The translations under genes and the position numbers were made by a program. This document shows, one piece after another, positions 15,969 to 27,696 of a stretch of DNA of 32,160 nucleotides (the stretch's first letter is position 1; every line of letters begins with the position of its first letter). The DNA is from Promethearchaeota archaeon. GTDB lineage: Archaea; Asgardarchaeota; Odinarchaeia; Odinarchaeales; JBHLKK01. The stretch lies in assembly GCA_048939565.1 (NCBI GenBank), contig JBHLPJ010000002.1:1-32160 (forward strand). The letters are read 5' to 3'. A model generated the notes under the pieces. That model was not told where the DNA came from. It was given only the letters and a program-made list of their open reading frames with translations, and did not search any database.

Positions 15969-16814
15969 TTATTCTAAGATTATCCTCTCCAAGAGTTCCA
16001 AAAGACTATTTCGTTGAGCTTTCTCTATTGCTACCAAGCCGTAGGTCTTGATACCGAGTACCTCTTCAATTTCTTCAGGAGGGAGCGCGTTCCCGCGATC
16101 CTGTTTGTTCGCAACTCCTATGATTTTTGCATATGGAGCCTTGCTCTTAACCAGCGGGAGGATTTTTTCTTTTGTCAACTTAATATTATCCAGTGTAGAG
16201 TCACAGACTATGGCAATGACTTCTGTTCCTTTAACAAGTATGTCCCAGGCAGCCATGAACTGCTCCTGACCTGCAAAGTCAAATATCATGACATAGTAGA
16301 CTCCTACAGTAACTGTAAGCGGTTCTCTATCGGCGAAGATTGTGGGAACATATTTCATTGGAATTTCTTCTTTTCTCAAGAGGCGAAGTATGGTCGTCTT
16401 CCCGACGCCGCCAAATCCAACCAAAGATAGCTTCACCGGAAGCTTGCTTATGATATCAATCACTTCGTTGTTAAATCCATCGCTTAGCTGGGAGCCGTTC
16501 TCAATCTGATTCTCGACCCCAAACTTCTTAATAAATGAGGTTGTTATTTGCAGCAAAATATCCTGAACTTCTCGTTCTGAATTTGTTCTATCGCTTAGTA
16601 CAGCGAATATGTTGTCGTTTGACTTGAGATAGGAGAAACGAAAACGAACAATGTTTGTGTGTTCGATATTGCCCATTTCCATTCTCTCGGAGGCACCCAA
16701 AATTGTAGGCAGTATTGCGTCCACTGAGATCTCTTTCGATCTTGTGAATGATTTGTGGAAAACCTTACCTCCGACTTTATCTAGTATTAGTACCTCTCGT
16801 ATCAATTGCATCAC
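15969..16814 (-). CDS. Two-domain protein: N-terminal longin/roadblock-like alpha-beta domain fused to an Arf/SR-beta-like small GTPase domain
   Basis: The C-terminal half carries G1 GFGGVGKTT, switch-I T (VPTIF), G3 DFAGQEQF and G4 NKQD (Arf/Sar/SR-beta-type). The N-terminal ~125 aa reads as beta-beta-alpha-beta-beta-alpha (IREVLILDKVGGKVFHKSF ... FRFSYLKSNDNIFAVLSD ... VQDILLQITTSFIKKFG), resembling sigma-adaptin/longin domains. Confidence 0.8.
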   Translation of the reverse strand: MMQLIREVLILDKVGGKVFHKSFTRSKEISVDAILPTILGASERMEMGNIEHTNIVRFRFSYLKSNDNIFAVLSDRTNSEREVQDILLQITTSFIKKFGVENQIENGSQLSDGFNNEVIDIISKLPVKLSLVGFGGVGKTTILRLLRKEEIPMKYVPTIFADREPLTVTVGVYYVMIFDFAGQEQFMAAWDILVKGTEVIAIVCDSTLDNIKLTKEKILPLVKSKAPYAKIIGVANKQDRGNALPPEEIEEVLGIKTYGLVAIEKAQRNSLLELLERIILE

Positions 16815-17083: not shown

Positions 17084-18922
17084 TTGCCCAAAACTGCAAA
17101 ATATATGTTTAAGATAATCACTGTCGGAGATGGAATGGTTGGCAAGACCAGTCTTATCCTACGATTCACTGAAAATACCTTTAGGGAGACCTATAAAAAG
17201 ACCATAGGGGCCGATTTCGCTATTAAGAATGTTGATATTGACGGGATTATAGCTAAACTCCAAATTTGGGATTTAGGCGGTCAGGATACCTTTAAGGATC
17301 TACGCAAGATATTCTATCCTGGAGCACGCGGAGCCGTATACGTTTTCGATGTTACTAACCGACCAACCTTCGAAAATATCAGACACTGGTTTAAGGATAT
17401 AGATTCAGTAGTCGGCGATGTTCCCGGACTATTGGTTGGCAATAAGATAGATCTAGCCAGAGAAGTAAGCTATGAGGAAGGGAAAGAATTAGCAGATGAG
17501 CTAGGTATGGACTATCTCGAGACGAGTGCTAAAACTGGAGAAAAGGTAGTAGATGTTTTTAAGATCATGGCGCGAGTAACAGTCGGCGAGAAAGCCGAAG
17601 AAATTCCTACTGGGGTTCCTTCGGCAATATCTCCAAAAATCCCCGGAATCTCTACAGATACTTCAATTGCCTTGGGTCCGGAAGCTGAACTGGAATCCGA
17701 GATCCCTGCAACACCTGCTGACCTGCTTCCAGCTAAACCAGCAATACTTCCTGACGTTGTTATGGATGTTTATGAGTGGATCGAATCACACAGAGACGAT
17801 TTCGTAGATTTATTGAAACGTCTAATAGGTGCTGATACAACCAATCCTCCTGGACACGAGTTCAGAGCAGCCAGAATAATACTGGAAGAATTACTAAAGG
17901 ATAATATCAGATTCAGGGTTTATGAAAGCGAAAAGGATAGAACAAATGTTGTCAGCTGGTCCGGCAAAACTGAGAGTCCTTCTGTTATGCTGGTCTGCCA
18001 TCACGATGTTGCACCGCAAGTTGAGGGGTGGAAGCATCCGCCGCTTGATGCTCTTGAGAAAGATAGCAGGATATATGGGTTAGGAGCTTGCTGCAGCAAA
18101 GGTCCCCTTGTTTCTGCTCTAATGGCCCTTAGAGCGATTCATGTCCTTAATGTAGAACTTAAAGGACAAGCAATGGTCGTGGCGGCCTCCGATGGACTTG
18201 GAGATGGATCAATTGGATTAAAGCACCTCATAGAAGAGGTAGGACTCGTTCCAAATCATGCCATTGTAGCCAGCCCTACAAACTGCAAAACAATAAGAAC
18301 CGTAGAACTAGAGACATTAGCTTTCAGACTTACCAGCAGAGGAAGAGTGTTTGAACCCTCACTTAAGGACATCAATGCTGCCGAGAAACTCGTCAAGGTG
18401 TTAGCAGGATTCAATGATTCTAATGGAAGCAAATATCCGACGCTCGCCAAATGCTCGATTAACATAAGGGAGATCAGAGGAATGCCTGGTGTTGGCGGCA
18501 TTCCTGAGTGGGCAGAGGCAACTCTAGATATTCGTCATCTATTCAAGGAGAACAACGAAAAGATACTTGACGAGGTTCGAAAATTGATTGATAATACCAA
18601 GATATTGGATTCCGATGTTGACGTGTCCATCGAGCAATTACCCGAACCTCCAAAAATCGCCTCTTCAGTCGATGCTCCTGTCGTAATGGCGGTTCGAGAT
18701 GGTTTATATAATACTGCCAATCAAGAACCCTCTTTCGCCGAAACCAAAGAGAATGTCTTGGCGAAAATCTTGGTTCAAAGTAAAATACCTGTGTGCATAT
18801 TTGGCCCAGGTAATGAAGAGAAGTGCAACAGTCCGAACGAGTATATCGAGATTGATGATATGATCGAGGGTGCTAAGGTTTTTGCTGCATCGATAATTAC
18901 TTTGCTAGGGATTAAAGACTGA
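17084..18922 (+). CDS. Rab-like small GTPase fused through a Pro/Ala-rich linker to an M20 (ArgE/DapE/CPG2-type) metallopeptidase-like domain with degenerate active site
   Basis: GTPase domain (aa 1-168): GDGMVGKTS, TIGADFAIK, WDLGGQD, GNKIDL, ETSAK. Linker: aa ~169-225. M20 domain (aa ~226-612): N-terminal LLKRLIG..T.NPPG, VCHHDVAP, W.HPP, IYGLGACCSKG, FGPGNEEKCNSPNEYIEIDD. TTG start at 17084, with ATG 17105 as an alternative. Confidence 0.85.
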   Translation: MPKTAKYMFKIITVGDGMVGKTSLILRFTENTFRETYKKTIGADFAIKNVDIDGIIAKLQIWDLGGQDTFKDLRKIFYPGARGAVYVFDVTNRPTFENIRHWFKDIDSVVGDVPGLLVGNKIDLAREVSYEEGKELADELGMDYLETSAKTGEKVVDVFKIMARVTVGEKAEEIPTGVPSAISPKIPGISTDTSIALGPEAELESEIPATPADLLPAKPAILPDVVMDVYEWIESHRDDFVDLLKRLIGADTTNPPGHEFRAARIILEELLKDNIRFRVYESEKDRTNVVSWSGKTESPSVMLVCHHDVAPQVEGWKHPPLDALEKDSRIYGLGACCSKGPLVSALMALRAIHVLNVELKGQAMVVAASDGLGDGSIGLKHLIEEVGLVPNHAIVASPTNCKTIRTVELETLAFRLTSRGRVFEPSLKDINAAEKLVKVLAGFNDSNGSKYPTLAKCSINIREIRGMPGVGGIPEWAEATLDIRHLFKENNEKILDEVRKLIDNTKILDSDVDVSIEQLPEPPKIASSVDAPVVMAVRDGLYNTANQEPSFAETKENVLAKILVQSKIPVCIFGPGNEEKCNSPNEYIEIDDMIEGAKVFAASIITLLGIKD

Positions 18923-18987: not shown

Positions 18988-20505
18988 TTGAATGTTATTA
19001 CTGTTGAAGACATGAAGATTGCCGACAGGAATTCCGACTATTTGGGTGTTCCACCTCACATCTTGATGGAAAACGCAGGACGAGGAGTTGCAGATGCCAT
19101 TAACAATACCCATAAGGTTGAAGGCAAGAGAATCGTTATATTCTGCGGCCTGGGAAACAACGGCGGAGACGGATTTGTGGCGGCTAGGCATCTGGCTGGG
19201 TTGGGAGCTACAGTATGCCTTATCCTAATGGGCCATCCTGATCGGATTCGCACCCCTGAAGCCCAAAGGAACTGGAGAATCCTAGATAAGATGCAGCTGA
19301 CCGTTGATAAGGTAATTTGCACAGATTCTTCCGAGGAATCCAAGATTAAGGATCTAGTATCTGATGCGGACATAGTTGTAGATGCCATTCTTGGAACAGG
19401 ATTCTCTGGGAAGCTTAGAGACCCCATCACTGTGGCTGTTGACATAATTAATACTTTCATTGGGTTGAAGGTTGCAGTTGATGCGCCAACAGGAGTAGAT
19501 GCATCTACCGGAAAGATATCTGATCGAGCAGTTGAAGCAGACCTGACAGTAACATTCCACAAAGCTAAACCCGGACTGCTGAAAGCGCAGAAACATGTGG
19601 GTAGACTTACAGTTGCCGGAATCGGCATTCCGCCAGAAGCAGAGATTATCGCAGGACCTGGAGATGTAGGAATGACCCAGAAAAGCCGTAGCCCGCATGC
19701 CAAAAAAGGGGAATTTGGAAAAATCTTGGTTATAGGGGGAGGCAGTTATTATCATGGGGCTCCTACATTTGTGGCCTTCGCGGCCCTTAGAACCGGAGCA
19801 GATCTAGCAATCATTGCTACTCCGAGCAGTGTCGCGGACGCAGTGAGAAGTTTTTCTCCAAACCTAATTGTCCGTAGCCTACCCGGGGATGTTCTTACGG
19901 AGGATGCACTCCCTTCATTGAAGGGACTAATTGATTGGGCATCCTGTGTTGCCATAGGACCTGGCTTGGGTGTTGAGGCAGAAACAGTAGATGCTGTACT
20001 TAAAATTCTTGATCTTATCAAAGAGTCCAACAAGCCAACCCTAGTTGACGCTGATGCAATAAAGGCAATGGCAAAAGAGAAGACCATCTTGAGCGGACTT
20101 CCTGCTGTATTGACACCCCACGCTGGCGAATATACAAAGCTTACTGGCGAAATCCTGCCCCCCTCTGAGGAGCTTCAGAAAAGAATTGGCATAATAATGA
20201 GAACAGCAGGAGAACTTGGTGTAGTTCTGCTTCTTAAGGGGCATGAAGATATTGTTTCTGATGGAAAACGCTACAAGATTAACACTACTGGCAATCCTGG
20301 CATGACTGTGGGAGGTACTGGCGATGTCCTCAGTGGCGTTGCTGCAACATTTCTTTCACAAGGCTCCGATCCATTTAGAGCAGCAGTCTCAGCTGCCTTC
20401 ATAAATGGTCGCGCAGGTGATTTAGCTGTGGACAGACTAGGATATCATATTGTTGCCACGGATGTCATAGAGATGATTCCAAAAGCTATGAAAGAATGCC
20501 TGTGA
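18988..20505 (+). CDS. nnr: Bifunctional NAD(P)H-hydrate repair enzyme (NAD(P)HX epimerase / ADP-dependent dehydratase, YjeF N+C)
   Basis: YjeF_N domain: FCGLGNNGGDGFVAARHL, DAILGTGFSG. Carbohydrate-kinase domain: KG.FGK.LVIGG, GPGLG, TPH.GE, GGTGDVLSG. TTG start preceded by GGGGGGAG. Confidence 0.9.
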   Translation: MNVITVEDMKIADRNSDYLGVPPHILMENAGRGVADAINNTHKVEGKRIVIFCGLGNNGGDGFVAARHLAGLGATVCLILMGHPDRIRTPEAQRNWRILDKMQLTVDKVICTDSSEESKIKDLVSDADIVVDAILGTGFSGKLRDPITVAVDIINTFIGLKVAVDAPTGVDASTGKISDRAVEADLTVTFHKAKPGLLKAQKHVGRLTVAGIGIPPEAEIIAGPGDVGMTQKSRSPHAKKGEFGKILVIGGGSYYHGAPTFVAFAALRTGADLAIIATPSSVADAVRSFSPNLIVRSLPGDVLTEDALPSLKGLIDWASCVAIGPGLGVEAETVDAVLKILDLIKESNKPTLVDADAIKAMAKEKTILSGLPAVLTPHAGEYTKLTGEILPPSEELQKRIGIIMRTAGELGVVLLLKGHEDIVSDGKRYKINTTGNPGMTVGGTGDVLSGVAATFLSQGSDPFRAAVSAAFINGRAGDLAVDRLGYHIVATDVIEMIPKAMKECL

Positions 20506-20642: not shown

Positions 20643-21548
20643 GTGTTAGTAATGATAATCTACGGCGTATCGGATTCTGGTGATCTAGACGAACTAAAGG
20701 GAGATAGACCAATTAAGGATTATTTAGTCAGCGACAGAGTTCTTATTTTAATAGATGATGATTTGAAGAAAATTTGGATATGGAAAGGTAATAGTGCCCC
20801 TGTTCGACAGAAATTTATTAGTGCGCGAGTGGCAAATCAAATAAGACAGGAAAGAGGATTAACCTATAAGACTTTGAGCATTGATGAAGGTGAAGAATCA
20901 CAAGAGTTTCTCGATTCAATTGGAGCCAAACCAAAGAAAGCTCCCCGTCCTGCGCTTCCAGCTGAGCCCAAACCTCCTATGCCCGTTGCAGCTCCCACTC
21001 CTGATCCAACTCCCAAGTCTGCTCCAGCACCGGCTGCTCCAGCTCCCGCGCCAATAGTCAAACAGCCTGAAGCACCAAAAACACCTGCAACCTCAAGAGT
21101 CACTTCGCCCATGCCCTCTCCCACTCCAGCAGTAGTTACGCCTCTTGAAGCAGAAGTAATATCGAAACTTGAAAGAGTCGAAATCCCTCGCGGATATGAA
21201 AGAGAGTTGGTCATCGTTGGCAACGAGGTATATGCAATCACAGAATATCGAACGATTTTCTTGGGGGAGAAAAAGGTTGAAACAAAATTAGAAAAAGCCT
21301 CTAAGCTACCAGAGGGAATATTCTTTGCAGAAGGTTACACACCTAGAGTAATAGTGGACAAAGGTCGCGTTCTGGCTGTGGAATTCTTGAAAACAGGTAA
21401 GGGAGTTGAAGTCCCTGTCAAGGATACTACTCCTCGTTCACTGCGAGATGAAATGAAATTGCATTTGAGCGATCTAGTCGATTTCTTTAAAATCGATATC
21501 CCCAAGAAAGAGAAGAAGCTAAAAAGGGAAAAAAAGGGAAAGAAATAG
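20643..21548 (+). CDS. Gelsolin/cofilin-fold domain protein with Pro-rich linker, unknown C-terminal domain and Lys-rich tail (1DGelX-like architecture)
   Basis: In aa ~5-95, SDRVLILIDDDLKKIWIWKGNSAPVRQKFISARVANQIRQERGL.YKTLSIDEGEESQEFLDSIG fits the gelsolin-repeat pattern (yil...iyvW.G..as..ek..a...a..i......v.eG.E...F...f). A PxP/AP-rich segment follows (aa ~95-168), then a beta-rich ~120-aa domain and the tail KKEKKLKREKKGKK. Confidence 0.7.
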   Translation: MLVMIIYGVSDSGDLDELKGDRPIKDYLVSDRVLILIDDDLKKIWIWKGNSAPVRQKFISARVANQIRQERGLTYKTLSIDEGEESQEFLDSIGAKPKKAPRPALPAEPKPPMPVAAPTPDPTPKSAPAPAAPAPAPIVKQPEAPKTPATSRVTSPMPSPTPAVVTPLEAEVISKLERVEIPRGYERELVIVGNEVYAITEYRTIFLGEKKVETKLEKASKLPEGIFFAEGYTPRVIVDKGRVLAVEFLKTGKGVEVPVKDTTPRSLRDEMKLHLSDLVDFFKIDIPKKEKKLKREKKGKK

Positions 21549-21603: not shown

Positions 21604-21996
21604 GTGTCATCTGTAAAAATCACTCCTGAAAAAGCAAAAGAATTGGCCAATTATCTTAGTGAGATTACCATGAAAACCGAATTAGAGGCTCTGGCCTGTG
21701 TTACGCGTGAGGGACAACGACTTGCTTTCAAAACTGTTGGCTATGAAGTTGAACCGGATCTAATGTCAGCAATTTCAGCTGCCATGCTTCATGTAGGAGA
21801 GACTGCCGTATCAAGAATGGGCTTTGGAGATCTTTGGGAGGTTATTGTCACAGGAGCGGAGGGCTATATAGTGTTATCTGGAGCGGGAAAGCTGGTCTTG
21901 ATAGGTGCTGGGAGATCTATGACTAGTCTCGGCAATACTGTGAGTGTATTTAGAAATTATGCAAAAATGGTTGCCAATCTGTTTCCTAGCAAGTAA
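21604..21996 (+). CDS. Roadblock/LC7 (MglB-like) domain protein
   Basis: 130 aa. LEALACVTREGQRLAF...DLMSAISAAML..GE....MGFGDLWEVIVTGAEGYIVLSGAGKLVLIGAGRSMTSLGNT follows the Roadblock/LC7 profile. GTG start preceded by AGGGAG. Confidence 0.75.
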   Translation: MSSVKITPEKAKELANYLSEITMKTELEALACVTREGQRLAFKTVGYEVEPDLMSAISAAMLHVGETAVSRMGFGDLWEVIVTGAEGYIVLSGAGKLVLIGAGRSMTSLGNTVSVFRNYAKMVANLFPSK

Positions 21997-24402: not shown

Positions 24403-24927
24403 ATGGATGTCTTCGAAGCTATTAAGGGACGGAAAAGTATCAGAAGATTTAACAGTAAAGAGGTTTCTGACGAGGAATTAAGAATGATCTTGGATGCCGC
24501 AATTCGTGCCCCCTCCGCAGGAAATATACAGCCTTGGTCATTCATTGTGGTAAAAAATCCAAATAAGCGTAGAGATCTTGCAAGGGCCGCATATGGTCAA
24601 ATGTTCATTGCAGAGGCCCCTTTGGTTATAGCCGTCTGCGCAGATGAACGAGCTTCAGGTCGGGGGTATGGTTCGAGAGGAAGAAGCTTATATTGTATTC
24701 AAGATACGGCTGCAGCAATTCAAAATATCTTGCTGGCTACCTATGCACTGGGGCTCGGAAGCTGCTGGGTCGGCGCTTTTAGTGAAGACGCTGCACGCGA
24801 AGTAGTAGAAACTCCCCCAGAAGTTCGTCCTATTGCCCTCATACCTATAGGACATCCGGCAGAAAAACCGTATGCTACTGGTAGAAAATCTCTAAATTCC
24901 GTCGTGCACTGGGAGAAATATGGGTAG
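24403..24927 (+). CDS. Nitroreductase-family FMN oxidoreductase
   Basis: IKGRKSIRRF, APSAGNIQPW.F.VV, the internal CADE...QD.A.A..N..L.A..LGLG.CW.G pattern, and ...IPIGHP. GGAGGAG RBS. Confidence 0.85.
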   Translation: MDVFEAIKGRKSIRRFNSKEVSDEELRMILDAAIRAPSAGNIQPWSFIVVKNPNKRRDLARAAYGQMFIAEAPLVIAVCADERASGRGYGSRGRSLYCIQDTAAAIQNILLATYALGLGSCWVGAFSEDAAREVVETPPEVRPIALIPIGHPAEKPYATGRKSLNSVVHWEKYG

Positions 24928-24957: not shown

Positions 24958-26361
24958 ATGGCTACAGACCTAGAGGATCTTGCCAGGCTGTCGGTAGAAC
25001 TGGTGTCAAAGCACGGAGCAAAACTAGTTGAATCAAGAGCAGAATCAGGGGAAGCATTCACAATAATAATCTCAGAAGAAGGAATCAAAAGAGTCGATTT
25101 TGGTGAGAGCAAAGGCTTAAGCATACGTTTTTTGATGAATGATATGTGGCATTTCTCATCTCTTGATAACCCTTCCAAAAGGAAAATACATAGCCAAGTC
25201 AGAAATATGGTCAAAGCAGCAAGAATCAGCAGCGGAAATGAAATTATCGAAGTGGCTGAAACCAGAACGGTTAGGGACAGGTTGCGGGTAAAAAGCAAAA
25301 TAGATATTCATAATACACCTGTTGACGAGATTTGCAGCATCCCCATATCACTTCATAGAAGACTCCGGTCTGAAGACAAGACTCCAAGAACGCTGAAATC
25401 TTATACTATTTCACTCGCTGCTTCACACAGTGAGGAGTTCTTTGTCAACAGCGATGGATCAGAGATTGCTATGGAAGCACCCTTTACCGTGATGACTTTT
25501 TCAGCTGTTCTGCAAAAAGATGGAAAATTGGCAAAATCTGCAGATGCAATAGGCGGCACATACGGATTAGAGTTCTATAAAGATCGTGACATCTGGAAAC
25601 CCTTCGAGCTGGCAGATTCGGTTTTGAACCGAGGACAGGTTGCATTAAAAGGCAAAAGACCTCCGAAAGGAGACTACCCGGTTGTCTTGGACCAATCTAT
25701 GACTGGCACATTAATCCATGAAGCCTTTGGCCACTTATGTGAGGCTGATCTCGTTATGGCCGGAGGCATTCTAAATAGAGAAATGATCCAGAAACAGATA
25801 GCAGACGAAGGCGTGACAATAATTGATGATGGTATTCGCAAGGACGGTGCTTGGGTCCCTTATGATGATGAAGGCATCAGGCATGAAAAAACCGCACTGG
25901 TTAAGGATGGAGCGTTGAAAACATTCATGGTCAACCGTGAATATGCAGCCAAGTTGGGTATAAGTCCCACGGGTAATGCGCGAACATCCAATTATCACAC
26001 CCCCCCTATCATTAGAATGCGAAACACATATCTCAAAAAAGGTGATTTCAGTTTTGAGGAATTGATTGAAGACATTCATCAAGGTATATACGTTGAGAAG
26101 TTCATGGGCGGTCAAGCTTCCTTAATTGGAATGTTTCAATTTGCCGGGCAGGTAGGTTGGCTAATTGAAAAAGGACAATTGGCTACGCCTATTCGGGATG
26201 TAACTATCTCGGGCTCAACTCTGGAAACCTTGAAGACACTTGATGCTATTGGTAAGGATTTTGGAACAGATATAGGCATTTGTGGAAAAGGTCAACAGAT
26301 AAGCGTTGGAAGTGGAGGGCCTCCCATAAGAGTTCCAAAGCTCAGCGTTGGAGGAGAGTAG
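24958..26361 (+). CDS. tldD: TldD-family metalloprotease
   Basis: HEAFGHLCEAD (HExxxH) motif, the C-terminal GNARTSNY...P..RMRNTY pattern, and adjacency to a PmbA-like partner. Confidence 0.9.
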   Translation: MATDLEDLARLSVELVSKHGAKLVESRAESGEAFTIIISEEGIKRVDFGESKGLSIRFLMNDMWHFSSLDNPSKRKIHSQVRNMVKAARISSGNEIIEVAETRTVRDRLRVKSKIDIHNTPVDEICSIPISLHRRLRSEDKTPRTLKSYTISLAASHSEEFFVNSDGSEIAMEAPFTVMTFSAVLQKDGKLAKSADAIGGTYGLEFYKDRDIWKPFELADSVLNRGQVALKGKRPPKGDYPVVLDQSMTGTLIHEAFGHLCEADLVMAGGILNREMIQKQIADEGVTIIDDGIRKDGAWVPYDDEGIRHEKTALVKDGALKTFMVNREYAAKLGISPTGNARTSNYHTPPIIRMRNTYLKKGDFSFEELIEDIHQGIYVEKFMGGQASLIGMFQFAGQVGWLIEKGQLATPIRDVTISGSTLETLKTLDAIGKDFGTDIGICGKGQQISVGSGGPPIRVPKLSVGGE

Positions 26362-27696
26362 ATGAGTGATATTCTGGAAAAAACAATAAAAAGAGCTGAA
26401 AAAAAAGGAATTGAGGCCGAAATCTTCTTCGTATATCGAGAGGTTACAGACTGTAGCTTTGAGAACAATATCTTGAATGAATTTGGAACCGGAGTCTCAA
26501 GAGGTGTTGGCATTAGAGTAATTCGAAACAACAAGCTGGGTTTCTCCTCAACAAACACAATTACAGAAAGAAGTCTGGAGAGGGGCCTGGATAGGGCAAT
26601 AGCCCTAGCAAAAGTCAATCGTAAGAATCCTTTTATTGGTTTTGCAGAAGCTAAGAAGGACCACAACCAAGCTTTTCTTGATCCGAAAGTCTCCAACTTG
26701 CCTTACAGCTACTTCCTTGAGAACGCGAGAAATATGCTAGCCAATACTCAAGACACCCTCAAAAAAAGAGGAATAGATGCAGTAATTAGCGGAGGACTTG
26801 TAAGAGGCGTAGGCAGAGTGAGGATTCTAAATACCCTGGGGTTGGATATCCAGTATGAGAAGTCGATACTTAAGAAAGGAATCGGTGGTAAAGCAATAAA
26901 TCCCCCTTCTCTCGAGTGCGGGGTCTCGGAGTCTCTTGCCAAAGGGGTCGGGAAGTCTGTAGAAGAACTAAGCGATGAATTTGTTAGGACTTTGGCATTT
27001 TCGCTAAAACCTGAAAAAGTTGACAAAATCAGTGGTCATGTATTATTTCACCCGGACTCTTTTGCTCAAGTATTGTCCTATACATTAGGACCCGCCATAA
27101 GTGGGGAGAATGTATGCAGAGGTCGAAGCTTTCTGGCCAATTCAATAAATAAAAAGATAGCTTGTGAAAAGCTTCAGATTTATGACTGGGGCAACTTGGA
27201 GAGTCTCTTTAACTCTCGTCCTTATGATGGAGAGGGAACGCCCACTAGAAAAAATGAAATAATAGAGGCCGGTATTCTCAAATCCTTCATTTATGACATT
27301 GAATGGGGTAGGAGAGCAGGAGAGGGAAGCACTGGTAACGCACAGAGAAGTTTCAGCGGCGTTCCCATGATAGCTTTGAGCAGCTTCTTTATACCGCCTA
27401 CTGCCAAAGCATCATTGATGGAACAGCTGGATTCAGCGTACTATGTACGTGATGTTAGCGGAGCCCACACCTCAAATAGTGTAACTGGTGACTTTGGGGT
27501 AGGGATCATACAGGCCTATAGGATTAAACATGGGGAAATTGAGAAACCAGTATACGGAGCAACTATTGTGGATAACTGCATTAGTCTTCTGAAATCGGTT
27601 CAAGAAGTAGACAATGATGTTGAAAATCTTCAGCTTTCTGGAGGATCTGTAGCCATACATTCTGGAAAAATCTTAACATACATGAAGAGAGCTTAG
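26362..27696 (+). CDS. pmbA: PmbA/TldE-family protein (TldD partner, lacks HExxxH)
   Basis: Starts directly after the tldD stop. Same fold family by length and C-terminal motifs (YDGEG.PT, GNA.RS....P....S....P, GDF). No HExxxH motif. Confidence 0.85.
   Translation: MSDILEKTIKRAEKKGIEAEIFFVYREVTDCSFENNILNEFGTGVSRGVGIRVIRNNKLGFSSTNTITERSLERGLDRAIALAKVNRKNPFIGFAEAKKDHNQAFLDPKVSNLPYSYFLENARNMLANTQDTLKKRGIDAVISGGLVRGVGRVRILNTLGLDIQYEKSILKKGIGGKAINPPSLECGVSESLAKGVGKSVEELSDEFVRTLAFSLKPEKVDKISGHVLFHPDSFAQVLSYTLGPAISGENVCRGRSFLANSINKKIACEKLQIYDWGNLESLFNSRPYDGEGTPTRKNEIIEAGILKSFIYDIEWGRRAGEGSTGNAQRSFSGVPMIALSSFFIPPTAKASLMEQLDSAYYVRDVSGAHTSNSVTGDFGVGIIQAYRIKHGEIEKPVYGATIVDNCISLLKSVQEVDNDVENLQLSGGSVAIHSGKILTYMKRA

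What the first reader, a model, noticed from the sequence alone, without database searches (positions are those of the whole stretch)
20643..21548. Single gelsolin-domain protein with an unknown C-terminal domain (1DGelX-like)
**Seen.** The N-terminal ~95 aa fits the gelsolin-repeat pattern: LILIDDD..KIWIWKGNSA....KFISARVANQIR......YKTLSIDEGEESQEFLDSIG. A long Pro-rich spacer follows, then a ~120-aa beta-rich domain (EVISKLERVEIPRGYERELVIVGNEVYAITEYRTIFLGEKK...GRVLAVEFLK) and a poly-Lys tail.

**Established knowledge.** Asgard archaea are known to encode primitive gelsolins, including a one-domain form with an uncharacterised domain X.

**Inference.** The function of the C-terminal domain and basic tail remains open; membrane, nucleic-acid or actin side-binding are possibilities.
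Basis: partly seen in the sequence, partly recalled or inferred. Interest (0 to 1): 0.65.

Follow-up and report, generated by a model that had tools for sequence, protein, structure and literature searches.

The report
Asgard gelsolin-X (1DGelX-type) actin regulator
This gene encodes another member of the already described Asgard-archaeal "gelsolin plus domain X" family of actin regulators. The main point added here is that the unexplained domain X is a compact, extremely conserved beta-rich module with no detectable relative, not a coiled coil or a disordered region.

Summary
The ORF is real (20643/20652..21548, +). Its N-terminal ~92 aa form a genuine gelsolin-homology domain. The family profile hits Loki 2DGel at 1.9e-15 and Thor ProGel at 1e-13. 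The AF2 model superposes on ProGel with TM 0.89.

A 71-aa linker (34% Pro) follows. Next come an ~85-aa conserved domain X, an amphipathic helix and a 15-aa polybasic tail.

- **Domain X structure:** it is predicted as one helix plus five long beta-strands (pLDDT 83-90). Conserved glycines sit at all three hairpin turns.
- **Constraint:** it is the most constrained region (dN/dS 0.008-0.02, against 0.07 for the gelsolin domain).
- **Distribution:** it occurs in 131 of 151 genomes of the window's (Asgard) phylum. In the top 150 hits it is always joined to a gelsolin domain or is the only region my two profiles detect.

A Roadblock/LC7 gene follows directly in 60 of 73 loci.

Verdict: a new member of a known kind. 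The function of domain X is still open. The most likely role is a second actin contact, with Roadblock docking as the main rival.

The parts
20652..21548 (+). GelX coding sequence. The probable start is ATG 20652 (298 aa). The alternative is GTG 20643 (301 aa, the numbering used in this report). The stop codon is 21546-21548.
   Evidence: P0002 (298 aa) and P0204 (301 aa) are both on record. Homologue P0004 starts MIVYGVS.
20652..20927 (+). Gelsolin-homology (GH) domain, aa 4-95. D39, W47 and G49 are invariant (the DWG motif). The long helix is aa 54-71, with invariant R55, K57, F58, I59, A61 and R68.
   Evidence: PDB phmmer hits: 7whg 4e-9, 7c2f 6e-7. Profile hits: 1.9e-15 and 1e-13. AF2 pLDDT is 80-93. 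Foldseek gives 111 hits at E<=1e-3, and all 50 listed are gelsolin, villin, adseverin or related gelsolin-domain entries, best TM 0.89. dN/dS is 0.07.
20928..21140 (+). Disordered Pro/Ala-rich linker, aa 96-166.
   Evidence: Composition is 34% P and 20% A. pLDDT is below 50. dN/dS is 0.24-0.39, the least constrained region. Linker length varies from 10 to 239 aa across the family, median 68.
21141..21395 (+). Domain X core, aa 167-251: helix 167-178 plus five beta-strands (185-192, 195-206, 209-218, 232-239, 242-251). Invariant residues are P182, G184, R187, E188, G208, G225, F227, P234, R235, E247, L249 and K250.
21441..21485 (+). Post-X amphipathic helix, about aa 267-281 (LRDEMKLHLSDLVDF, continuing into FKI). 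It carries the clade-specific motif LxxL[IV]DFF[KR].
   Evidence: It is predicted as a helix in both models but with low confidence, pLDDT about 50-63. The motif occurs in 23 of 141 family members. dN/dS is 0.10-0.13 for the 35-aa post-X region, aa 252-286.
21501..21545 (+). Polybasic tail PKKEKKLKREKKGKK, aa 287-301.
   Evidence: 10 of 15 residues are K or R. It is disordered in the model. A comparable tail occurs in only 18 of 141 family members.
21604..21996 (+). Roadblock/LC7-like gene, 55 bp downstream on the same strand. It is a conserved partner gene.
   Evidence: Pfam Robl_LC7 scores 4.5e-4, below the cut-off. The profile hits solved Roadblock/LC7 proteins 9jue at 8.9e-9 and 7f8m at 1.5e-6. 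Identity to the neighbours of Odin and Loki GelX genes is 44-58%. It lies directly downstream in 60 of 73 assessable loci.
18988..20505 (+). NAD(P)HX epimerase/dehydratase (YjeF_N plus Carb_kinase), the conserved upstream neighbour.
   Evidence: Pfam scores 4e-49 and 8.5e-46. It is upstream of GelX in most loci. It is probably synteny without a functional link.

Best explanation
The gene encodes an orthologue of the Asgard 1DGelX/GelX class of actin regulators, in a small-genome Asgard lineage. Its same-order relatives have genomes of 1.3-1.4 Mb, and its next-closest homologues carry Odinarchaeia labels.

**Shown here.**
- It has one bona fide gelsolin-homology domain with the DWG motif and the long helix.
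- A flexible Pro-rich tether links that domain to a compact, very strongly conserved beta-rich domain X.
- In this clade an amphipathic helix and a polybasic tail follow.

**Inferred mechanism.**
- The GH domain binds an actin subunit through its long helix, as seen for ProGel and 2DGel in their crystal complexes.
- On its own a single GH domain binds weakly and cannot sever (ProGel Kd 337 uM, no severing).
- Domain X, helped here by the basic tail, supplies a second attachment point on the filament side or on a neighbouring actin subunit.
- The tethered GH domain can then compete for actin-actin contacts. The result is severing, and at low dose nucleation.
- This is functionally analogous to the G2-then-G1 mechanism of eukaryotic gelsolin.

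**Calcium.** Regulation is probably calcium-independent. Where calcium-regulated 2DGel has an acidic Asp-Glu pair at the start of the long helix, this family has an invariant Arg followed by a non-acidic residue.
For: **Gelsolin identity.** D39, W47 and G49 are invariant.

**Family identity with Thor GelX.**
- The alignment with the Thor protein is end to end: 41% identity, E 7e-59.
- The Thor protein's GH domain is 35% identical to ProGel, the figure published for 1DGelX.

**Published biochemistry of Thor 1DGelX** (PMC7444086).
- Kd for rabbit actin is 7.7 uM, against 337 uM for ProGel.
- Nucleation and severing are calcium-independent.
- Transient short bundles form.
- The authors themselves hypothesise an actin side-binding element in the C-terminal extension.

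**Domain X is functional and tied to gelsolin.**
- It is the most constrained region, with dN/dS 0.008-0.021.
- Among the top 150 representatives, wherever either of my two profiles detected a partner it was a gelsolin domain: Gel-X 88, Gel-X-X 3, X-Gel 1. The other 58 hits showed X only.
- It is present in 70 of 72 high-quality genomes of the window's phylum.
- The tether length is free to vary from 10 to 239 aa, as expected for two independently docking modules.

**Calcium site.** The 2DGel 'svDEk' segment aligns with the family's 'svRsk'.

**In vivo.** In the L. ossiferum study, five gelsolin homologues co-immunoprecipitate with Lokiactin. Its preprint places B35_GelX with Thor_GelX.
Against: - No direct evidence shows that X touches actin. 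X has no similarity to any known actin-binding fold.
- GFP-1DGelX associated only weakly with filaments in human cells and concentrated at ER and nuclear-envelope-like regions.
- The tightly conserved Roadblock neighbour suggests that X may instead bind that protein.
- No actin gene was found in this 83%-complete MAG. However, 15 of 15 relatives have one, including both same-genus genomes.
- The AF2 model of X rests on shallow alignments (13-23 sequences) and has pTM 0.52.
Confidence: 0.5

Rival explanations
1. Domain X is the docking site for the dedicated Roadblock/LC7 dimer encoded immediately downstream. GelX-Roadblock would be a two-protein module in which a Roadblock platform controls or localises the gelsolin domain. 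By analogy with MglB or Ragulator, that platform might read a small GTPase. Under this reading X does not contact actin.
For: - The Roadblock-like gene is directly downstream on the same strand in 60 of 73 assessable loci, spanning Odin-, Loki-, Thor-, Hermod- and Hod-labelled genomes. In this window the gap is 55 bp.
- The neighbour is itself highly conserved, at 44-58% identity.
- It is a true Roadblock-fold relative.
- X is more constrained than the actin-binding GH domain, as expected for a specific protein-protein interface.
- Two small GTPase genes lie just upstream in this window.
Against:
- A 13-locus clade keeps all X invariants but has a zinc-ribbon gene instead of Roadblock downstream.
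- Thor 1DGelX gained about 40-fold affinity for actin and gained severing without any Roadblock protein present. The C-terminal part therefore already has an actin-related role.
- The upstream YjeF gene is equally syntenic yet has no obvious functional link, so synteny alone can mislead.
Confidence: 0.3
2. The C-terminal region (X plus amphipathic helix plus polybasic tail) is a membrane or anionic-surface anchor. It would place actin severing and nucleation at the cell membrane or in protrusions.
For: - The amphipathic helix LxxLVDFFKI is followed by 10 K/R residues in 15, a typical membrane-targeting arrangement (established knowledge).
- GFP-1DGelX concentrated at ER and nuclear-membrane-like regions in U2OS cells.
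- The tail is under purifying selection against the closest orthologue, with dN/dS 0.05.
Against: - The tail (18 of 141) and the helix motif (23 of 141) are clade-specific, while X is universal. Membrane binding therefore cannot be the general function of X.
- Polybasic tails also bind acidic F-actin or nucleic acids non-specifically.
Confidence: 0.15
3. Domain X is a homo-oligomerisation module. It would turn a monovalent GH domain into a bivalent actin binder, which would explain nucleation and transient bundling.
For: - Thor 1DGelX nucleates at substoichiometric doses and produces short bundles, both of which require at least two actin sites.
- A five-strand sheet with free edges could pair.
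- Variants add a long coiled coil after X (P0123, Helarchaeota) or duplicate X (P0096, P0159).
Against: - There is no evidence on oligomeric state.
- Adding a coiled coil in some lineages suggests that X itself does not dimerise.
- The model is monomeric and compact.
Confidence: 0.1

Closest known systems
Thorarchaeota 1DGelX (Akil et al. 2020, PNAS, PMC7444086) and its SMTZ1-45 orthologue AM325_003590 (P0249)
   Same: The architecture is the same: one GH domain, a Pro-rich linker, domain X, a helix and a basic tail. The alignment is end to end at 41% identity. Both are Asgard proteins, and both have a Roadblock gene downstream in Thor-labelled loci.
   Different: The lineage differs: this is a small-genome Asgard archaeon whose same-order relatives have genomes of 1.3-1.4 Mb. 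The published description of X as a predicted coiled coil does not fit the helix plus five-strand model obtained here. I could not obtain the exact SMTZ1-83 sequence.
Lokiarchaeum ossiferum B35_GelX (bioRxiv 10.1101/2025.11.30.690169; Nature 2026, PMC13716822)
   Same: It has a GH domain, an extensive linker and domain X, and it clusters with Thor_GelX. It comes from the organism in which five gelsolin homologues co-immunoprecipitated with Lokiactin.
   Different: Loki-type members in my alignment lack the polybasic tail and carry a GPLYxG linker motif instead of a pure Pro/Ala linker; whether B35_GelX itself is of this type was not checked, because I did not have its sequence. That preprint calls X a 'disordered domain of unknown function', whereas here it is the most constrained and confidently folded part after the GH domain.
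Thorarchaeota ProGel (PDB 7C2F) and Asgard 2DGels (7C2G, 7C2H, 7WHF, 7WHG)
   Same: The GH fold and sequence family are the same, and so is the DWG motif.
   Different: ProGel has no linker or X domain. 2DGels add a second GH domain instead of X and are calcium-regulated. The acidic DE pair of 2DGel at the start of the helix is R-x here.
Eukaryotic gelsolin G1-G2, and villin (GH domains plus headpiece)
   Same: This is a 'works like' comparison. A GH domain is tethered by a flexible linker to a separate module that gives a second filament contact and so enables severing.
   Different: The second module is not a GH repeat (hhalign probability 0.1%). It also has no similarity to any solved fold. 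There is no type-II calcium site.

Membership tests
Gelsolin-homology (GH) domain superfamily | Significant sequence-profile similarity to gelsolin repeats | tested here: met
   phmmer against the PDB gives 7whg 4.2e-9, 7c2h 2.1e-7, 7c2f 5.8e-7 and villin 2e-4. The family profile A4 gives 1.9e-15, 1e-13, 2e-11 and gelsolin about 1e-6. Caveat: the Pfam Gelsolin score is only 13.5 bits, below the cut-off of 21.
Gelsolin-homology (GH) domain superfamily | Fold: central mixed beta-sheet packed against a long helix and a short helix | tested here: met
   The AF2 model has strands 4-9, 15-17, 33-38, 43-48 and 76-81, a long helix at 54-71 and a short helix at 87-93, with pLDDT 80-93. Foldseek places 7c2f_B on top with TM 0.89 and rmsd 2.0 A. 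There are 111 hits at E<=1e-3, and all 50 listed are gelsolin-domain entries.
Gelsolin-homology (GH) domain superfamily | DWG motif (Asp hydrogen-bonded to Trp, followed by Gly), which distinguishes gelsolin from cofilin | tested here: met
   D39, W47 and G49 are invariant in 23 family members. The motif definition is quoted.
Gelsolin-homology (GH) domain superfamily | Binds actin | not testable with these tools
   Binding is known only for Thor 1DGelX, with Kd 7.7 uM on rabbit actin.
Calcium-regulated gelsolins (type-II site) | Acidic ligand (Glu) at the start of the long helix | tested here: not met
   Loki 2DGel 'svDEk' aligns with family 'svRsk'. R55 is invariant and the next residue is never acidic in the alignment. 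The assignment of this position as the calcium ligand comes from my own knowledge of gelsolin G1 (Glu97). It is consistent with the calcium-independent activity of 1DGelX.
1DGelX / GelX class | Architecture: a single GH domain followed by a linker and a non-GH domain X | tested here: met
   X is unrelated to GH by hhalign (probability 0.1%).
1DGelX / GelX class | Domain X homologous to the X of the Thorarchaeota protein | tested here: met
   The alignment with Thor SMTZ1-45 AM325_003590 is end to end and includes X (41%, E 7e-59). The GH domain of that protein is 35% identical to ProGel, as published for 1DGelX. Caveat: the characterised SMTZ1-83 sequence itself was not available.
1DGelX / GelX class | Restricted to Asgard archaea | tested here: met
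   No named source among the hits carries a non-Asgard label. Some are labelled only 'uncultured archaeon' or 'archaeon'. X is present in 131 of 151 genomes of the phylum and in 70 of 72 high-quality ones. Hits in the 1.84-billion-protein library carry no taxonomy.
1DGelX / GelX class | Calcium-independent nucleation and severing of actin filaments | not testable with these tools
   This requires biochemistry. Only the sequence-level absence of the calcium ligand was seen.
1DGelX / GelX class | Domain X forms a coiled coil (the published I-TASSER prediction, not a strict definition) | tested here: not met
   Two AF2 runs give one helix plus five beta-strands. Conserved Gly residues sit at all three hairpin turns. 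A true coiled coil is found only as an additional C-terminal segment in a Helarchaeota variant, P0123.

The most novel reading that the evidence does not exclude
Domain X is a previously unrecognised protein fold. It is nearly universal in, and so far confined to, Asgard archaea, and it is more constrained than the gelsolin domain itself. Under this reading its conserved face docks the dedicated Roadblock dimer encoded next door. Actin severing and nucleation would then be switched by a Roadblock/small-GTPase-type signalling platform, an ancestral link between GTPase signalling and the actin cytoskeleton that predates eukaryotes.
Probability: 0.2. Interest if true: 0.75.

Novelty: new member of a known kind. 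Interest (0 to 1): 0.35.

Why it matters
GelX is the most active of the primitive Asgard gelsolins in vitro, and the part that makes it active (the linker plus X) is unexplained.

- X is a small (~85 aa), folded domain under extreme constraint.
- It is phylum-wide.
- It has no detectable relative.

These results also correct the literature's 'coiled coil' and 'disordered' descriptions. If X proves to bind actin in a new way, or to bind the conserved Roadblock partner, that would bear on how regulated actin dynamics arose before eukaryotes.

As a genome annotation, however, this locus is simply one more orthologue of a described family.

Tried and rejected
1. **X as a degenerate second gelsolin repeat.** hhalign probability 0.1%. 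Rejected.
2. **X related to its Roadblock neighbour.** hhalign probability 0.7%. Rejected.
3. **X matching any Pfam family or PDB sequence.**
   - The PDB profile search gave no hit at all at E<=10.
   - Pfam gave only noise (TRAM 0.034, CHU_C 0.14), each in only 1-2 of the 13 members.
4. **X matching a solved fold.**
   - The Foldseek best hit has E 0.13 and TM at most 0.25 (alpha-crystallin, NF1 Sec-PH, GFP).
   - The model includes floppy tails and has pTM 0.52, so a missed fold cannot be excluded.
5. **The Loki-type vWA neighbour as the 'Sec23-like' protein lacking its gelsolin domain.** This would make GelX plus vWA a split Sec23.
   - The vWA domain is C-terminal and there is no Sec23/24 hit in Pfam or the PDB.
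   - Not supported by sequence, and that gene is absent from this window.
6. **Absence of actin in this genome as biology.** Rejected as an assembly gap. The MAG is 83% complete, and 15 of 15 relatives, including both same-genus genomes, have actin.
7. **Obtaining the published 1DGelX or B35_GelX accessions.** No supplementary files are held for either paper. The link to the published protein therefore rests on the SMTZ1-45 orthologue.
8. **Model coordinates.** They are not available in the Python box, so no surface-conservation or electrostatics mapping was possible.

Full report
**Observation.** The ORF listing finds a 301-aa ORF at exactly 20643..21548 (+) with a GTG start. Nine bases downstream is an ATG (20652), which gives MIIYGVS... 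and 298 aa. That form is on record as P0002, the closest homologue P0004 starts at the same place, and other family members begin just before the first beta-strand. I therefore take 20652 as the likely start. I keep the 301-aa numbering below.

- a gelsolin-like N-terminus;
- a 71-aa spacer with 34% Pro and 20% Ala;
- a conserved beta-rich C-terminal domain;
- the tail PKKEKKLKREKKGKK.

**The N-terminal domain is a real gelsolin-homology domain.**
- Pfam's Gelsolin model scores only 13.5 bits, below the cut-off of 21.
- phmmer against PDB sequences hits the solved Asgard gelsolins: Loki 2DGel 7whg 4.2e-9, Thor 2DGel3 7c2h 2.1e-7, Thor ProGel 7c2f 5.8e-7 and villin 2e-4.
- A profile of eleven family N-domains raises these to 1.9e-15, 1e-13 and 8e-13. 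It also reaches villin (2e-11) and vertebrate gelsolins (about 1e-6).
- The AF2 model (pLDDT 80-93) has the expected sheet, long helix (54-71) and short helix.
- Foldseek returns 111 PDB hits at E<=1e-3. All 50 listed are gelsolin, villin, adseverin or related gelsolin-domain entries, led by ProGel 7c2f_B (TM 0.89, rmsd 2.0 A).
- D39, W47 and G49 are invariant in the family. These form the DWG motif that the literature uses to separate gelsolin from cofilin.
- In the alignment with calcium-regulated Loki 2DGel, the acidic pair 'DE' at the start of the long helix faces an invariant Arg (R55) plus a non-acidic residue. From my knowledge of gelsolin G1, that Glu is the type-II calcium ligand. Its absence fits the calcium-independent activity reported for 1DGelX.

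**Family and relation to the published 1DGelX.**
- A word-indexed search finds 51 relatives of 248-322 aa with no Pfam annotation. Their labels are Hod-, Odin-, Loki/Promethearchaeota-, Thor-, Hermod- and Njordarchaeota.
- 204 species-representative genomes encode a relative, and none of the 80 best carries a non-Asgard label.
- Akil et al. [quoted passage not shown]
- I could not retrieve that sequence, because no supplements are held.
- A search with a Thor-type member returns AM325_003590 from Thor SMTZ1-45, another assembly used in that paper.
- Its GH domain is 35% identical to ProGel (30/85), the figure the paper gives for 1DGelX.
- It aligns with the window protein over 296 residues at 41% identity, E 7e-59. 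The alignment runs through the Pro-rich linker, X and the helix, and both proteins end in a basic tail.
- The 2025 preprint on L. ossiferum describes B35_GelX and Thor_GelX as a GH domain, an extensive linker and domain X.

I conclude that the window protein belongs to this known class.

**Domain X.** The literature describes X as a predicted coiled coil (I-TASSER) or as disordered or unknown. My results differ.

- *Conservation.* The aligned family shows an ~85-aa block (aa 167-251) with twelve invariant residues: P182, G184, R187, E188, G208, G225, F227, P234, R235, E247, L249 and K250.
- *Predicted structure.* Two AF2 runs, one full-length and one of the domain alone, give the same topology. 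It is a helix at 167-178 and five long strands at 185-192, 195-206, 209-218, 232-239 and 242-251, with core pLDDT 83-90.
- *Sequence-level support.* The conserved glycines G193, G208 and G241 fall exactly at the three predicted hairpin turns.
- *Constraint.* Against the two closest orthologues (L005, L006), dN/dS is as follows:

| Region | vs L005 | vs L006 |
|---|---|---|
| Domain X | 0.008 | 0.021 |
| GH domain | 0.067 | 0.076 |
| Linker | 0.39 | 0.24 |
| Post-X region (aa 252-286, contains the helix) | 0.13 | 0.10 |

  X is thus the most constrained part of the protein.
- *Caveat.* The model has pTM 0.52 and comes from shallow alignments, so 'new fold' is not established.

**Distribution and architecture of X.**
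- An exhaustive HMM search of 1.84 billion representatives finds 223 proteins at E<=1e-3 and 107 at E<=1e-10.
- Among the best 150, counted with my own GH and X profiles, the architectures are Gel-X 88, X only 58, Gel-X-X 3 and X-Gel 1. Several of the X-only hits do not begin with Met, which suggests fragments.
- Pfam scans of ten unusual proteins added a Helarchaeota Gel-X-coiled-coil protein (P0123) and an X plus HeH/Rho_N protein (P0173). P0123's GH domain was found by Pfam Gelsolin (7.2e-6, residues 23-89), not by my GH profile.
- In 151 genomes of the window's phylum, X is found in 131, in 70 of 72 high-quality genomes and in 47 of 52 genera. There are 1-6 copies per genome and a single copy in this lineage.
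- Linker length ranges from 10 to 239 aa, median 68.
- The polybasic tail (18 of 141) and the LxxL[IV]DFF[KR] helix (23 of 141) are clade-specific additions.

**Genomic context.**
- The window's order is a Ras-type GTPase fused to an M20 peptidase (17084-18922), then YjeF NAD(P)HX repair (18988-20505), GelX, a Roadblock-like gene (21604-21996, 55 bp gap) and a convergent phosphoglucomutase.
- The downstream protein is 44-58% identical to the genes that follow GelX in Odin- and Loki-type loci. Its profile matches solved Roadblock/LC7 proteins 9jue at 8.9e-9 and 7f8m at 1.5e-6.
- Across 73 assessable loci it sits directly downstream on the same strand in 60.
- The 13 exceptions form a separate clade in which a ~430-aa zinc-ribbon protein follows instead.
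- YjeF is upstream in most loci. A large vWA protein and an actin gene lie downstream in Loki-type loci.
- The Asgard Roadblock structure paper never mentions gelsolin. It states that MK-D1 small GTPase genes generally do not share operons with Roadblock genes. I found no held paper that visibly describes the pairing.
- Earlier notes of this scan on other genomes report the same pairing. My count is an independent confirmation.

**Own genome.**
- G000 is 1.38 Mb and 83% complete. It has one GelX and three further GH-domain ORFs of 95, 102 and 207 aa, resembling ProGel and 2DGel.
- No actin gene is found. All 15 relatives have one, including both same-genus genomes, so this is most likely an assembly gap.

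**Mechanism.**

*Shown:*
- a GH domain, a flexible tether and a constrained globular X;
- among the top 150 hits, the only partner my two profiles detected for X was a gelsolin domain;
- the calcium ligand is absent.

*From the literature:*
- ProGel alone barely binds actin (Kd 337 uM) and does not sever.
- 1DGelX binds about 40-fold tighter, nucleates at low dose, sequesters at 1:1, severs without calcium and gives transient short bundles.

*Inference:*
- The C-terminal region supplies a second contact, which lets the tethered GH domain wedge into actin-actin contacts.
- This is analogous to G2-then-G1 in gelsolin.
- I give it about 0.5.

*Rivals:*
- The main rival (about 0.3) is that X docks the conserved Roadblock dimer.
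- Lesser, non-exclusive options are membrane anchoring through the helix and basic tail and homo-oligomerisation. Membrane anchoring is supported by the ER and nuclear-envelope localisation of GFP-1DGelX, but the tail is not universal.

**Verdict.** The locus is a new member of a known kind. The added value is a sharper description of domain X and a confirmation of the Roadblock linkage. The function of X remains untested.

Noticed in passing
window 17084-18922 (+): A 612-aa protein fuses an N-terminal Ras/Rab-type small GTPase (Pfam Ras 5e-51) to a peptidase M20 domain with its dimerisation domain. It lies two genes upstream of GelX. The same fusion is upstream in L005 and L006 (91% and 85% identity), and a partial match (43%) is upstream in Odin locus L007. 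It is an unusual GTPase-peptidase fusion.
   Followed up: partly
window 15969-16814 (-): A 281-aa protein has an Arf/Roc/Ras-like GTPase domain only in its C-terminal half (aa 127-257) and an unassigned ~125-aa N-terminal region.
   Followed up: no
window 21604-21996 (+) and loci L005-L084: A Roadblock/LC7-like gene lies directly downstream of GelX in 60 of 73 assessable loci. The YjeF-GelX-Roadblock trio is conserved from Odin-labelled to Loki-type loci, and in Loki-type loci a vWA protein and an actin gene follow. I found no description of this pairing in the held papers.
   Followed up: partly
loci L013-L016, L028, L030, L036, L037, L042, L057, L062, L071, L074: This is a distinct GelX clade (start MRVLS..., basic tail) without the Roadblock neighbour. 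In 9 of the 10 loci inspected a ~330-440-aa protein with two N-terminal zinc-ribbon motifs (CSRCGATLK...FCTVCGTP) follows instead; in L015 a 132-aa zinc-ribbon ORF and a 253-aa ORF take its place. A Ras-like GTPase lies about 5-6 kb downstream in several loci.
   Followed up: partly
proteins P0123, P0096, P0159, P0127, P0173, P0095, P0114 (other genomes): Architectural variants of domain X:
- Gel-X-long coiled coil (Helarchaeota, P0123);
- Gel-X-X (P0096, P0159);
- X-Gel (P0127);
- X plus an HeH/Rho_N motif (P0173);
- X at the N-terminus of a 444-aa protein with a zinc-ribbon-like segment (P0095);
- a ~250-aa acidic repeat linker (P0114).

   Followed up: partly
G000 (own genome): No actin gene was detected in this 83%-complete MAG, although all 15 relatives searched have one. 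This is probably an assembly gap. The genome also has three other gelsolin-domain ORFs, on C140, C78 and C110.
   Followed up: partly
The genome search matches in families f9 and f19 (e.g. G048, G063, G069, G087): Many matches to the X-domain profile are flagged with one or two in-frame stops, for example '1 TAG' in several members of one genus. The likely cause is that the profile's C-terminal tail positions read past the natural stop of shorter proteins. This was not checked.
   Followed up: no
window 24958-27696 (+): A tandem TldD/PmbA metallopeptidase pair (467 and 444 aa), preceded by a nitroreductase gene at 24403-24927. Ordinary.
   Followed up: no
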